Source: Chrysomallon squamiferum
Lineage: Eukaryota > Animalia > Mollusca
Direction of reading: 5' to 3'
DNA: 64,000 nucleotides
NCBI GenBank assembly: GCA_012295275.1
Contig: CM022665.1
Location: forward strand, 47,988,001-48,052,000
Below are positions 8,201 to 49,094 of the stretch, in pieces; the first letter of the stretch is position 1; each line of letters begins with the position of its first letter. A program made the position numbers and the translations under genes. The notes beneath the pieces were generated by a model. The model worked only from the letters and a program-made list of their open reading frames with translations. It was not told the origin of the DNA and ran no database searches.

Positions 8201-11200
8201 AATATTTTTATGTATTTCACTAATTTTAATATTTTTGTGTATTGCCCTAATATTAAATATTCATGTACTTCACTAATGTTAAATATTTGTGTTTCTCTAA
8301 TGTTAAATATTTTTTGTTTCTCTAATGTTAAATATGTTTGTATTTCACAAATGTTAAATATGTTTGTATTTCACAAATGTTAAATATGTTTATATTTCAC
8401 AAATGTTAGATATGTTTATATTTCACAAATGTTAGATATGTTTGTGTATGTCAGGGTATGGAAGGTGCTCTGCCACGCTGTAAACCTTTCAAGTACACGT
8501 ATGAGAAAGAAATAGTCATGTGAGTCTGCAATTTATTACCTTTTAAATTCTTTATTATTATCTGTGTGTGTGTGTGTGTGTGTGTGCGTTTATTTAAAGT
8601 ATTCTAAATTTGTAAAAATAAGTATTACACAGTATATATGTTTTTTAATTGTATGTATATTGTATGTATATTTTATGTATCTTTGTTTTACAGGTACGCC
8701 TATTTTAAGAAGCTGGATTACTTCTCCACTGAATGTATCTATTCTCCCAACGCCTACAGGTAGCACAAGTGAATTTAATCAACTTTAAACCAGTTAATAA
8801 CGATAATAATAATAATAATAATAATAATAATAATAATAATAATAATAATAATAATAATAATAATAATAATAATAATAATAATAATAATAATAATAATAAT
8901 AATAATAATAATTAAAAAAATAAAAAATTAATAAGAATGTCTCTGTTATTCTCACTGTTGTAAAACACTGTGACTTTGTTTTCCAGGGGATTTGCCAGGG
9001 CATACATCAAGGACTTGGAGAAAATCAGGCCGACTGCTATAATAGGTAAAAAAAAAAACTTGTTAGGTTCGCTCAGTACAGGTGATGTCTGTTTAGTAAC
9101 CTGTACAAAGTAATGTGAAAAATGCAGCTCAGAAACTGTCTTTAATGCCTTTATTTATTTATTCTGAATTCAGAAACATCTCTCTACTACATTTTTGTTA
9201 TTACAATAACACATCTTCTTTTATAATTACAAGAACCACTAATATAAAACCACTTAGAAAGAACATAGCAGTAAACACATTTATTATCTGGGTTATTTTA
9301 TGTCTGTTTTTATGTATGTGAGATATTTTACAGATATCATCCACTCAGGAGAAAGTATGTCGGTGAAGAAAAATGTGAAAATGCCTGTACAAGGTAATTT
9401 TCTTTTTAAAACATCTATTTCTCTTTAAATAGGTATTTTTGTTGAATACTCAGTCTGTTAAAATGTTTCATCTTCTTATGAAATGTTTATCAGTCCAAGA
9501 AAGAAAATTTCTATTTTCTAAAGTGAACTAGATATGATATGTTTATGTTAGAGTGAAGTGTACTAGATGAGATATGTTTATGTTAGAGTGAAGTGTACTA
9601 GGTGTGATATGTTTATGTTACAGGGAAGTGTACTAGATGAGATATGTTTATGTTACAGGGAAGTGTACTAGGTGTGATATGTTTATGTTACATGGAAGTG
9701 TACTAGATGAGATATGTTTATGTTAGAGTGAAGTGTACTAGACGAGATATGTTTATGTTACAGGGAAGTGTACTAGATGAGATATGTTTATGTTAGAGTG
9801 AAGTGTACTAGACGAGATATGTTTATGTTACAGGGAAGTGTACTAGATGAGATATGTTTATGTTACAGGGAAGTGTACTAGATGAGATATGTTTATGTTA
9901 GAGTGAAGTGTACTAGATGAGATATGTTTATGTTAGAGTGAAGTGTACTAGATGAGATATGTTTATGTTAGATGAAGACTAGATGTTTTTATGTTACATG
10001 GAAGTGTACTAGATGAGATATGTTTATGTTAGAGTGAAGTGTACTAGATGAGATATGTTTATGTTACAGGGAAGTGTACTAGATGAGATATGTTTATGTT
10101 ACATGGAAGTGTACTAGATGAGATATGTTTATGTTACAGGGAAGTGTACTAGATGAGATATGTTTATGTTACAGGGAAGTGTACTAGATGAGATACGTTT
10201 ATGTTACAGGGAAGTGTACTAGATGAGATATGTTTATGTTACAGGGAAGTGTACTAGATGAGATACGTTTATGTTACAGGGAAGTGTACTAGATGTGATA
10301 TGTTTATGTTACAGGGAAGTGTACTAGATGTGATATGTTTATGTTAGAGTGAAGTGTACTAGTTGTGATATGTTTATGTTACATGGAAGTGTACTAGATG
10401 TGATATGTTTATGTTACATGGAAGTGTACTAGATGAGATATGTTTATGTTACAGGGAAGTGTACTAGATGAGATATGTTTATGTTACAGGGAAGTGTACT
10501 AGATGTGATATGTTTATGTTACATGGAAGTGTACTAGATGAGATATGTTTATGTTACAGGGAAGTGTACTAGATGTGATATGTTTATGTTAGATGGAAGT
10601 GTACTAGATGTGATATGTTTATGTTACAGGGAAGTGTACTAGATGTGATATGTTTATGTTAGATGGAAGTGTACTAGATGTGATATGTTTATGTTACAGG
10701 GAAGTGTACTAGATGTGGCTACATGTCAAGTAATCCTGTGTGCAAGGCGTGTGTCTTACTGGAAGGTCTGAACAAAGGAAGACCAAGGTAAGAGTATTTT
10801 AACCCTTTTAATGATAAAACATGTTTAACTATATTACAAGTAAAACTAGTTACATTCATAATAATTACATATAAACTTTGTCACACACTTTAACTGTGCT
10901 ACACAGACTGAGTCAGGTTGTTGATACTAACTGATGTGACTAGGTCAGGTTTCTTCTTTCACATGTATTAAAACTGAGTAAATTATCTTTTCAGGCTGGG
11001 TATCGGAAAAGAACACAAGGAGAGGAGAAAGGTGAGATTTTTACTCATAATTACTTGTTAAATACTTTCTTTTATTACATATTTTCTTTTTAATTACTTG
11101 TTAAATATTTTCTTTTATTACATATTTTCTTTTTAATTACTTGTTAAATATTTCCCTATTGTACATTTTAGTGTTTATTGTTATTATATATATATATATA

Positions 11201-47000: not shown

Positions 47001-49094
47001 ATGAAGTGTATGTTTGTATTTCAGAGTCAGCGCAGTCTAGCACTGTGAGACAAGTAGATGAAGTGTATGTTTGTATTTCAGAGTCAGCGCAGTCTAGCAC
47101 TGTGAGGTCTATTGAGGAGGTGGAGGCTGACTTGGCTGATGAAGTGGAACATGTGAAAGCTCTGATTCTGGAGAAGCTGGATGCTGTGAATGCTCTGAGG
47201 ACTGAACTCAAAGACAACTGTGTCCCCCTCACTGTGTGCACTCACCTGGAACAGTGCATCAAAGAAACTGAGGTAACTTACGTTGCAGACACAACACCTG
47301 TTACATACATTGTAAACATGTAGCATACATTTTATTCATAACAGCTGTAACATACTGAAAAAACAATATCTGTAACATACACTGAAAATGTAAACACAGT
47401 TGTAGCATACATTGTAAACAAACTCTGTAACATGCACTGTGAATGCAATATGTGTAATATACACTATAAACCTATGATGTAATATATGTGTGTGTCTGTG
47501 TGTGTGTGTGTGTGTGTGTGTAACATGTAACACACTGAAACTCTAATATTGACGTGAACTTACTAAATAAGACCAATGCTGAGATGTTACTTGTTACAGA
47601 CTGAAGTACAGAAACTGGTAAAACATAACAAGTATTACAACATGTAACTTAATCACACTGATATTGTGATAGTGATGTGAAAGTGTTAAATAAAGACCAA
47701 TGCTGAGACATTGCTTGTTACAGACTGAAGTACAGAAACTGGTAAAACATAACAAGTATTACAACATGTAACTTAATCACACTGATATTGTGATAGTGAT
47801 GTGAAAGTGTTAAATAAAGACTGATACTGAGATATTGCTTGTTGCAGATTGAAGTGCAGAAACTGGTAAAACATAACAAGTATTACAACATGTAACTTAA
47901 TCACACTGATATTGTGATAGTGATGTGAAAGTGTTAAATAAAGACTGATACTGAGATATTGCTTGTTACAGATTGAAGTGCAGAAACTGCTGAAACAGAA
48001 TGAGTATTACGAGAGGAGCATTGCTGAGATGGAGAGTGACTTGAAGTTAGCCATTGTTGATGCTGACACCAGTGAGAAAGATGCCAAGTATGTGTTTGTA
48101 AATCACAGTTTATTTTTATATCACATTGTTGTAAATCTTGTTTGTAAATATTAGTGCTTTTGTAATTACAAATATTAGACAAGTCTTATTTGTAAATAAT
48201 ATATGATTCTCTGTTTTAAATATAAATATGAAGCTAGTAACTGTAACTACTTCATGGCATTTTTTTGTAAATACACCCTCCTGACAAAAATATATTTATT
48301 GTTATATGTAACACTTGTAATACATGTAACAGTTATGTGTTGTCATGTTAAATGTGTAAAGTTGTACAAGAAGTGAGATAGAAGTATACAGTGAAGTGTT
48401 GTATTAAATGTGTAAAGCTATACAAGAAGTGAGATAGAAGTATAGAGTGAAGTGTTGTATTAAATGTGTAAAGCTATACAAGGAGTGAGATAGAAGTACT
48501 AAATGTGTAAAGGAGTGAGATAGAAGTATGCAGTGAAGTGTTGTATTAAATGTGTAAAGCTATACAAGGAGTGAGATAGAAGTATGCAGTGAAGTGTTGT
48601 ATTAAATGTGTAAAGCTATACAAGAAGTGAGATAGAAGTATACAGTGAAGTGTTGTATTAAATGTGTAAAGCTATACAAGGAGTGAGATTGAAGTATGCA
48701 GTGAAGTGTTGTATTAAATGTGTAAAGCTGTACAAGGAGTGAGATAGAAGTATACAGTGAAGTGTTGTATTAAATGTGTAAAGCTGTACAAGGAGTGAGA
48801 TAGAAGTATGCAGTGAAGTGTTGCATTGAAGTGTTGTATTAAATGTGTAAAGCTATACAAGAAGTCAGAAGTATGCAGTGAAGTGCTGTATTAAATGTGT
48901 AAAGCTATACAAGGAGTGAGATAGAAGTATGCAGTGAAGTGTTGTATTAAAACATAAACTCGTTTTCATCCTTCAGACGTATTTGGAGGAAAGTGAACTC
49001 AAGAAAAGGAGTGCCAGGAGTTGGCACCAAGGCTGCCAACGAGGAAAGCGATGATGATGATGAAGAGAGCAAGTGGAACTGGTACATTTCGTAG
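44092..49094 (+). CDS. C6orf118: C6orf118-like coiled-coil protein with TSNAXIP1_N domain
   Basis: Exons 44092-44775, 45084-45209, 45621-~45804, 46267-46322, 47082-47272, 47972-48087, 48977-49094 (TAG). N-terminal LKGLLNDVERVHKKDINDYTAGHLN and central KLQVYSDIFEDVIQESPTFSYILGCIKVEYDNYITKLL resemble C6orf118 as I recall it. One junction (exon 3/4) is out of phase as assembled. Confidence 0.75.
46348..47107 (+). repeat. ~57-bp x~13 array spanning the acceptor and first ~26 nt of C6orf118-like exon 5
   Basis: Unit gtagatgaagtgtatgtttgtatttcag|agtcagcgcagtctagcactgtgagacaa; true acceptor at 47081. Confidence 0.93.
47565..48010 (+). repeat. 124-bp x~3.6 array spanning the acceptor and first ~39 nt of C6orf118-like exon 6
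   Basis: AG acceptors at 47599, 47723, 47847 and 47971 (true), with an exact 124-bp period. Confidence 0.92.
48348..48950. repeat. ~59-bp minisatellite ending ~25 bp before the last C6orf118-like acceptor
   Basis: Unit taaatgtgtaaagctatacaaggagtgagatagaagtatgcagtgaagtgttgtat. Confidence 0.88.

What the first reader, a model, noticed from the sequence alone, without database searches (positions are those of the whole stretch)
9525..48010. Recurrent splice-acceptor-seeded tandem arrays: introns filled with decoy copies of the next exon's 3' splice site
Seen: at least six sequence-unrelated arrays in four genes have a unit equal to intron end + AG + the first 6-40 nt of the exon. They are CTU1 (35 bp x~34), the WAP gene (44 bp x~11), CSTF2 (21 bp x3 and 52 bp x10) and C6orf118-like (57 bp x~13 and 124 bp x~4). 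The functional exon is always the 3'-most copy, and many upstream copies keep an intact YAG. Established: 3' splice sites are normally chosen as the first suitable AG after the branch point, helped by exon definition. Inference: this genome has a mutational process that nucleates tandem amplification at exon boundaries, plus a selection mode that ignores dozens of identical decoy acceptors, even in housekeeping genes. Candidate triggers are spliceosome/R-loop pausing, nucleosome edges or RNA-templated repair. I know of no named system for this but cannot search the literature.
Basis: partly seen in the sequence, partly recalled or inferred. Interest (0 to 1): 0.88.

Follow-up and report, generated by a model that had tools for sequence, protein, structure and literature searches.

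The report
Splice-site "mirage" repeats in snail genes
In four genes of what is likely a snail, six short stretches spanning the end of an intron and the start of the next exon are copied 3 to 34 times in a row; where RNA was checked it uses only the last, true copy, so these are likely tolerated repeats of a kind already known from lancelets, though repeats here sit unusually close to exon edges.

Summary
All six acceptor-spanning arrays are real, at the stated places and sizes. For 4 of 6 (both CSTF2, both C6orf118-like), contigs of two RNA runs splice to the 3'-most copy. This includes one case with a near-identical, in-frame, stop-free decoy 57 nt upstream. Other DNA runs hold these four arrays or their units; one lacks 42 bp of the 21-bp array. 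The structure has a name: amphioxus "mirage" minisatellites (PMC3087553, PMC3902484); the human F7 intron-7 VNTR is a donor-side analogue. This scan has found the same kind on other DNA (annelids, sea urchins). Acceptor-specific seeding is not supported: 6 of 26 intronic arrays cross an acceptor against 2.4-3.8 expected (P 0.03-0.16). A broader pattern is strong: 24 of 26 arrays end within 30 nt of an exon edge (11 donor side, 14 acceptor side, one both; 9-14 expected), and arrays begin at the stop codon in 3 of 5 genes. Best reading: tolerated mirages resolved by exon definition, in a genome where duplications likely arise or survive preferentially at exon edges. One window only; cause untested.

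The parts
9521..10715 (+). CTU1 intron 11 acceptor mirage: 35-bp unit (19 nt intron + 16 nt exon) x34; used acceptor 10700 (by frame); 16 CAG decoys
   Evidence: Pfam zn-ribbon_14 on 10702-10785; not tested in RNA or DNA runs
19955..20423 (+). WAP/lustrin/Kunitz gene intron 2 acceptor mirage: 44-bp unit (32+12) x10.7; used acceptor 20412 (by frame); 10 TAG decoys
   Evidence: Pfam WAP; not tested in RNA or DNA runs
29972..30039 (+). CSTF2 intron 4 acceptor mirage: 21-bp unit (15+6) x3.2; used acceptor 30034; length-polymorphic
   Evidence: RNA joint in X8 and X9 skips 387 nt to 30034; DNA run X5 skips 42 bp
32367..32895 (+). CSTF2 intron 8 acceptor mirage: 52-bp unit (39+13) x10.2; used acceptor 32883
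   Evidence: RNA loose end after 32088 reads into the true exon in X8, X9; 82-nt unit contig at depth 281 vs 38-49 on flanks in X5
46351..47106 (+). C6orf118-like intron 4 acceptor mirage: 57-bp unit (32+25) x13.6; used acceptor 47082; decoy at 47025 is in frame and stop-free
   Evidence: RNA contigs of X8, X9 join exon 4 to 47082; homologue has no such insertion
47564..48010 (+). C6orf118-like intron 5 acceptor mirage: 124-bp unit (85+39) x3.6; used acceptor 47972
   Evidence: RNA loose end after 47272 carries the true exon-6 letters; 154-nt unit contig in X3
7933..8003 (+). CTU1 intron 7 donor mirage, 21 bp x3.4, begins 10 nt inside the exon; one downstream GTGAG copy
23401..23641 (+). WAP gene intron 8 donor mirage, 42 bp x5.9; four downstream GTGAG/GTAAG copies
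12225..15166 (+). 39-bp x~77 array that begins 20 nt inside the CTU1 coding end and includes the stop codon (ends 12244)
   Evidence: 66 copies of the stop-spanning 22-mer
26339..26596 (+). 28-bp-based array beginning at the WAP gene stop codon (ends 26338)
33870..34043 (+). 26-bp array beginning 7 nt after the CSTF2 stop codon (ends 33862); unit resembles the last coding letters
5289..12244 (+). CTU1 (cytoplasmic tRNA 2-thiolation protein 1), 14 exons found, first exon not located
   Evidence: open frame over joined exons; Pfam
19188..26338 (+). WAP/lustrin/Kunitz multidomain gene, 11 exons found, 5' part not located
28663..33862 (+). CSTF2, 11 exons
   Evidence: 7 introns shown as GT..AG joints in RNA contigs
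35670..41020 (+). MPC1, 6 exons; no acceptor mirage; 48-bp array ends 12 nt before an acceptor, 52-bp array starts 25 nt after a donor
44082..49094 (+). C6orf118-like / TSNAXIP1_N gene, 7 coding exons

Best explanation
These are 'mirage' minisatellites: tandem copies of an intron end plus an exon start, which the RNA examined splices past to the last copy, likely because exon definition pairs the downstream donor with the nearest complete acceptor, and which likely persist as tolerated by-products of a duplication process biased to exon edges. Shown: unit anatomy; use of the 3'-most copy (4 of 4 tested); presence of those arrays or their units in other DNA runs; a shorter allele of the 21-bp array; excess of array ends within 30 nt of exon edges on both sides. 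Inferred steps: (1) a 20-125-bp tandem duplication arises near an exon edge, by slippage or repair at short direct repeats (the short 21-bp allele leaves one unit flanked by a 5-nt repeat); (2) where it crosses an acceptor it survives only if the last copy still has a full pyrimidine tract, which fits the intron part being the larger share in 6 of 6 units; (3) unequal exchange expands and scrambles the copies and lengthens the intron (four of the six collapse to 60-340 nt or less and now measure 390-1300), which would further favour exon definition; (4) NMD would remove most residual decoy use, since 54 of 55 AG decoys tested give a premature stop. The edge bias is likely tied to the coding/non-coding boundary (GC 49% vs 27%; chromatin or recombination) rather than to the spliceosome, as it also shows at stop codons.
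For: Anatomy matches the published definition (PMC3087553 passages; PMC3902484 passages). RNA: joint to 30034 and true-exon loose ends at 32088, 47080 and 47272 in both RNA runs. The in-frame decoy at 47025 equals the used site over -20..+10, gives no stop and is still not in the contigs, so NMD alone does not explain that case. DNA: X5 skips 42 bp of the 21-bp array; unit-length contigs for the 52-, 57- and 124-bp arrays in X2, X3 or X5. Exon-centred proximity under exon definition: PMC9225289 (passages and section 9); F7 VNTR uses only the exon-proximal donor (PMC1557585 abstract and Discussion). Edge bias: 24 of 26 vs 9.4-14.1 expected, and 17 of the 19 non-spanning arrays vs 6.8-6.9; cut-off-free test P 0.005 to <5e-5 in 7 of 7 automatic parameter sets; 11 donor-side, 14 acceptor-side; stop codons 3 of 5, crude P 0.001.
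Against: RNA evidence is assembled contigs from two runs of one study; contigs drop rare forms, and the animals may carry other array alleles. Both RNA runs also hold an 82-nt contig of the 52-bp unit (depth 11 and 4.6 against 20.7 and 8.7 for the mRNA): most simply pre-mRNA or DNA multiplied by about 10 copies, but partial decoy use or retention is not excluded. CTU1 and WAP were not tested in any run. In human data competing 3' sites favour the upstream site overall; exon definition only reduces that preference for long-long exons, so it does not by itself predict complete silence. The edge statistic is from one window, the 30-nt cut-off was chosen, and the share of duplicated bases is not higher near edges (it rises towards intron interiors). 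No test here addresses the molecular cause of the bias.
Confidence: 0.72

Rival explanations
1. No mutational bias: minisatellites arise anywhere in short introns of a repeat-rich genome, and those next to exons merely survive longer because deletions that would remove them also hit splice signals or coding sequence.
For: Minisatellites cover 30% of the window; 22 of 44 introns hold one; collapsed introns are short (median about 240-270 nt). Acceptor crossing is not significant against the same-intron null (6 vs 3.7, P 0.14). The 5'-most copy is cut short in several arrays, a sign of erosion from the intron side. A U-shaped excess of tandem repeats towards intron ends is reported in 31 plants and algae (PMC3887541 passages).
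Against: The null already uses collapsed lengths and edge closeness stays far above it. The polymorphic 21-bp array sits at an edge while the 325 nt of intron beside it are shared with a run that lacks the extra copies, so that array appears younger than the interior.
Confidence: 0.3
2. Spliceosome-linked seeding specific to 3' splice sites (R-loops or pausing at acceptors).
For: 6 arrays cross acceptors against 1 (2-3 with degenerate copies) crossing donors; pooled null P 0.03-0.04.
Against: Same-intron null P 0.14-0.16 and whole-array null P 0.06. 11 arrays hug donors and 3 of 5 stop codons start arrays. Only 2 of 18 edge-hugging, non-crossing array ends hold a recognisable copy of their splice site. 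The window was picked for this feature.
Confidence: 0.12
3. The arrays are regulatory: decoy acceptors act as poison sites that tune expression through NMD, with copy number as a dial.
For: 54 of 55 AG decoys tested would give a premature stop; unit-sequence contigs appear in RNA; human tandem repeats can alter splicing (PMC10078293 passages).
Against: No decoy-spliced contig in 4 of 4 arrays; one DNA run lacks the extra 21-bp copies; the six units are unrelated; many copies have lost the AG (9 of 33 in CTU1); stops are expected in AT-rich intron sequence.
Confidence: 0.08
4. Assembly artefact.
For: Arrays were not seen in raw long reads here; exact copy numbers cannot be checked from contigs; a one-base frame break at the C6orf118-like exon 3/4 junction suggests small errors in the assembly.
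Against: Copies carry patterned variants; unit-junction contigs at high depth in runs of other samples for three arrays, and contig breaks at the fourth in X2.
Confidence: 0.03

Closest known systems
Amphioxus 'mirage' minisatellites (Adh3, globins BflGb6 and BflGb9, troponin C, PGBD5): PMC3087553 and PMC3902484, passages read; the original Adh3 paper (doi 10.1093/nar/gkf386) was not held
   Same: [quoted passage not shown]
   Different: Here a mollusc, up to 34 copies, six acceptor and two or three donor cases in five neighbouring genes, RNA evidence against an in-frame decoy, and a measured excess of all intronic arrays near exon edges. The papers call the mechanism of origin unclear.
Human F7 intron 7 37-bp VNTR (PMC1557585; abstract and Discussion read)
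   Same: First unit spans the exon-intron junction; five to nine identical sites; only the exon-proximal one is used, the others are functional but silent.
   Different: Donor side, one locus; the authors propose oriented scanning. Here mostly acceptor side.
Intron gain by tandem duplication (Rogers model); internal tandem repeats at exon-intron boundaries in human duplicated genes (PMC2812944, passages)
   Same: Tandem duplication at gene-structure boundaries, redundant copies spliced out.
   Different: No new intron is made here: existing introns are lengthened and the protein is unchanged.
U-shaped placement of tandem repeats towards intron ends in plants and green algae (PMC3887541, passages)
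   Same: Excess of tandem repeats near intron ends.
   Different: That study bins repeats by relative position in the intron; here 20-125-bp minisatellites sit within 30 nt of, or across, the boundary.

Membership tests
Mirage minisatellites | Tandem repeat whose unit spans an exon-intron boundary | tested here: met
   6 acceptor arrays run 6-39 nt into the exon; donor cases at 7933 and 23401
Mirage minisatellites | Minisatellite-size unit (10-160 bp in the published cases) | tested here: met
   21, 35, 44, 52, 57, 124 bp; published range
Mirage minisatellites | Many but not all copies keep the splice signal | tested here: met
   47 of 70 upstream copies keep YAG
Mirage minisatellites | Regular splicing to the authentic site is kept | tested here: met
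   4 of 4 arrays tested, 2 RNA runs, contigs only; 2 of 6 untested
Mirage minisatellites | Copy-number variation between alleles | tested here: met
   X5 contig skips 42 bp of the 21-bp array; for the longer arrays depth is only a hint
Mirage minisatellites | Concerted evolution with the boundary copy left out | tested here: inconclusive
   The used CSTF2 52-bp copy differs from all 9 decoys in its pyrimidine tract, but the used C6orf118-like copy equals its neighbour; no tree built
Mirage minisatellites | Somatic length instability (reported for Adh3) | not testable with these tools
   needs long reads or small-pool PCR from tissues
Recursive splice sites | AG followed at once by a GT donor in the decoy copies (feature recalled, not from a call) | tested here: not met
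   Letters after AG are GG/TG, AC, CT, GA, AG, AC/AT in the six arrays
Intron gain by tandem duplication | A new intron made from duplicated exon sequence | tested here: inconclusive
   Arrays lie at the 3' end of introns that also have non-repeated sequence and their own donor; intron positions in relatives were not compared
Poison-exon / NMD-coupled regulation | Decoy sites measurably used, more so when NMD is blocked | not testable with these tools
   no decoy-spliced contig in 4 of 4, but contigs drop rare forms

The most novel reading that the evidence does not exclude
This lineage has a mutational process that starts 20-125-bp tandem duplications within about 30 nt of any coding/non-coding edge - donors, acceptors and stop codons alike - so mirages are the subset that happens to cross the line, and a large share of its intron length is built by arrays growing outward from exon edges. 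The genome would then be a natural experiment with many graded acceptor competitions for testing exon definition in an invertebrate, and would supply the missing origin mechanism for mirages.
Probability: 0.35. Interest if true: 0.7.

Novelty: new member of a known kind. Interest (0 to 1): 0.38.

Why it matters
As a structure it extends amphioxus mirages to a mollusc; my searches found no paper on molluscan cases, but this scan has noted the kind in annelids and sea urchins. It warns annotators and marker designers that exon starts are multi-copy. The 47025/47082 pair is a clean natural test: an in-frame, near-identical upstream acceptor is passed over. If the exon-edge bias holds genome-wide it would bear on the open question of how mirages arise.

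Tried and rejected
No whole genome is held, so no genome-wide test was possible. Higher microhomology at intron ends as the cause of the bias: not seen (5-mer repeats at 18-60 nt: 262 of 64771 at edges vs 1692 of 371521 inside). 'Edge-hugging arrays are decayed mirages with lost AG/GT', suggested by eye for 5606, 8055, 11313 and 22469: not supported, 2 of 18 reach p<=0.05, combined P 0.40 (one search had a wrong gap setting and was discarded). Base-by-base duplicated share near splice sites: no excess, since arrays expand inwards. A minus-strand gene in 1-4900 that might place the arrays at 1760, 2290 and 3089 at exon edges: 0 of 14 frames gave a convincing Pfam match, so these were left as non-genic. 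Branch-point motif scan: a YTNAY between -13 and -24 in 4 of 6 units, only at -9 in CTU1 and none in the 57-bp unit, too loose to use. Original Adh3 mirage paper not held. Paper search for an Okazaki/nucleosome origin at exon edges: 3 listings, none on point, not read. Searches of earlier findings by place, by sequence and for edge enrichment returned nothing.
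Full report
Setting. The window is 25-45% GC, and minisatellites cover 30% of it. No whole genome is held. 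The first coding exon of the C6orf118-like gene found 5 homologues among 546 candidates; the three named ones are gastropods, the nearest Gigantopelta aegis at 54%, so the source is likely a gastropod. I modelled five genes by coordinates: CTU1 (14 exons), a WAP/lustrin/Kunitz gene (11), CSTF2 (11), MPC1 (6) and C6orf118-like (7), giving 44 introns. Four give one open frame; the last has a one-base break at the exon 3/4 junction. Pfam matched 10 of 13 exon translations, and 7 CSTF2 introns appear as GT..AG joints in RNA contigs.

Observation. All six arrays are present with the stated units and copy numbers. They run 16, 12, 6, 13, 25 and 39 nt into the next exon; the intron part is the larger share of the unit in 6 of 6 (1/64 by chance). 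Of 70 upstream copies 47 keep YAG. Only 4 of the 68 copies listed are identical to the used site over -20..+10. Of 55 AG-keeping decoys tested, 54 give a premature stop; the exception is 47025, a 57-nt in-frame insertion (46359 was not tested).

Which copy is spliced. One search found 11 runs, 9 holding part of CSTF2, 2 of them RNA; I laid 5 of the 11. Both RNA runs (one study) join CSTF2 exon 4 to 30034, the last 21-bp copy, and continue from exon 8 into true exon 9 sequence. Both join C6orf118-like exon 4 to 47082 and exon 5 to the true exon 6. So 4 of 4 arrays tested use the last copy, including the case NMD could not hide; the Gigantopelta homologue also lacks that insertion. Against a clean picture, both RNA runs hold an 82-nt contig of the 52-bp unit at about half the mRNA depth; ten genomic copies of low-level pre-mRNA or DNA would give this, but decoy use is not excluded.

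Are they real. X5 has a contig that skips 42 bp of the 21-bp array, leaving one unit, while X2's contigs break there; X5 holds the 52-bp unit as an 82-nt contig at depth 281 against 38-49 on the flanks. X3 and X5 hold unit-length contigs of the 57- and 124-bp arrays. Depth is not copy number, but an assembly artefact is unlikely for these four.

More than chance. I took 26 intronic minisatellites (period >=15, score >=80; two microsatellite-dominated loci at 7766 and 36643 dropped, two adjacent 29-bp loci merged), in 22 of 44 introns. Each was collapsed to one unit and placed at random. Acceptor crossing: 6 observed, 3.7-3.8 expected in the same intron (P 0.14-0.16), 2.4-2.6 pooled (P 0.03-0.04), 3.0 for whole-array placement (P 0.06). 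Donor crossing: 1 observed, 2.5-3.7 expected. The 30-nt cut-off was chosen after seeing the table; a cut-off-free rank test gave P 0.005 to <5e-5 in 7 of 7 automatic parameter sets. Eleven arrays hug donors and 14 acceptors, one both. Arrays also begin at or across the stop codon in CTU1, the WAP gene and CSTF2, 3 of 5 genes, crude P 0.001. Edge sequence is not richer in microhomology, most hugging arrays do not contain a copy of their splice site (2 of 18), and the per-base duplicated share rises inwards rather than at edges. The signal is thus exon-edge closeness on both sides, not acceptor seeding, and it comes from one window.

Mechanism. Shown: anatomy, last-copy splicing, polymorphism of one array, edge excess in this window. 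Inferred: a small duplication arises near an exon edge; if it crosses an acceptor it survives when the last copy keeps a full pyrimidine tract; unequal exchange expands it. Sites 20 nt or more apart are defined at the first step with separate tracts and branch points, and exon definition favours the site closest across the exon (PMC9225289, passages and section 9). That paper also shows an overall upstream preference for competing 3' sites that exon definition only reduces, so silence here probably also reflects selection keeping only the cases that splice correctly, plus NMD. Why founders gather at edges is untested. The GC step (49% exon, 27% intron) and the stop-codon cases point to chromatin or recombination at coding boundaries, or to better survival beside constrained sequence, rather than to the spliceosome.

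Known kin. Earlier notes of this scan gave the name 'mirage'; I checked it in two papers that my own searches had already listed. PMC3087553 (passages) describes tandem duplications of the 3' intron end plus exon start in amphioxus globin BflGb6, names them mirages after Adh3, reports normal splicing, partial retention of AG/GT and haplotype differences in copy number, and calls the origin unclear. PMC3902484 (passages) adds PGBD5 and troponin C. PMC1557585 (abstract and Discussion) is the human F7 donor-side case. PMC2812944 (passages) covers repeats at exon-intron boundaries in human duplicated genes; PMC3887541 (passages) an excess of repeats towards intron ends in plants; PMC10078293 (passages) human repeats that alter splicing; PMC3862624 (passages) had nothing relevant. 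The Adh3 paper was not held and I opened no supplements; those of PMC3087553 (alignments, trees) bear on the concerted-evolution comparison. Searches for a molluscan report and for an edge-biased origin found none, within a library that lacks most subscription journals.

Verdict. Observation confirmed; interpretation partly supported; a new, unusually dense set of a known kind. Interest 0.38, carried by the in-frame decoy test and the two-sided edge bias, which needs a genome-wide test.

Noticed in passing
window 36612-36615: MPC1 has a 4-nt microexon between AG and GTAAGT; it is needed for the open frame. A paper listing (PMC9929638, abstract start) reports a 4-bp MPC1 microexon from minigene studies, so it may be deeply conserved.
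   Followed up: partly
window 45804 / 46267: The C6orf118-like frame breaks at the exon 3/4 junction; against the Gigantopelta homologue the window seems one base short, likely an assembly error.
   Followed up: partly
window 12225-15166: A 2.9-kb 39-bp array starts in the last CTU1 codons and repeats the stop codon region about 66 times or more in the 3' region.
   Followed up: partly
window 46351-47106: Decoy copies carry GTG or GCG at the codon where the exon has GCG (Ala) and Gigantopelta has Val; a hint that array and exon exchange variants.
   Followed up: no
window 24785-25452: A 21-bp x32 array whose unit contains an acceptor-like TCTTACAG starts 18 nt after a donor, about 600 nt from the real acceptor; not a mirage, but many chance acceptors.
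   Followed up: no
window 28937 and 31547: Both RNA runs have loose ends here, outside the modelled CSTF2 exons; possibly an antisense or overlapping transcript.
   Followed up: no
window 40810-41020: MPC1 has a long C-terminal extension (about 65 codons) after the carrier domain, and a small duplication that includes its stop codon.
   Followed up: no
window 55940-56374 and 58592-59047: Two GC-rich open frames, each with a hydrophobic stretch and ending in a similar Cys-containing motif before a donor; look like first exons of type II membrane glycosyltransferases (recalled); no convincing Pfam match.
   Followed up: partly
window 60451-62274: A 39-bp x46 array with strong strand skew and a donor-like motif, not beside any exon I could model.
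   Followed up: no
window 1760-3722: Three arrays (36, 58, 62 bp) lie beside short GC-richer stretches that may be exons of an unrecognised minus-strand gene or the 5' part of CTU1; unresolved.
   Followed up: partly
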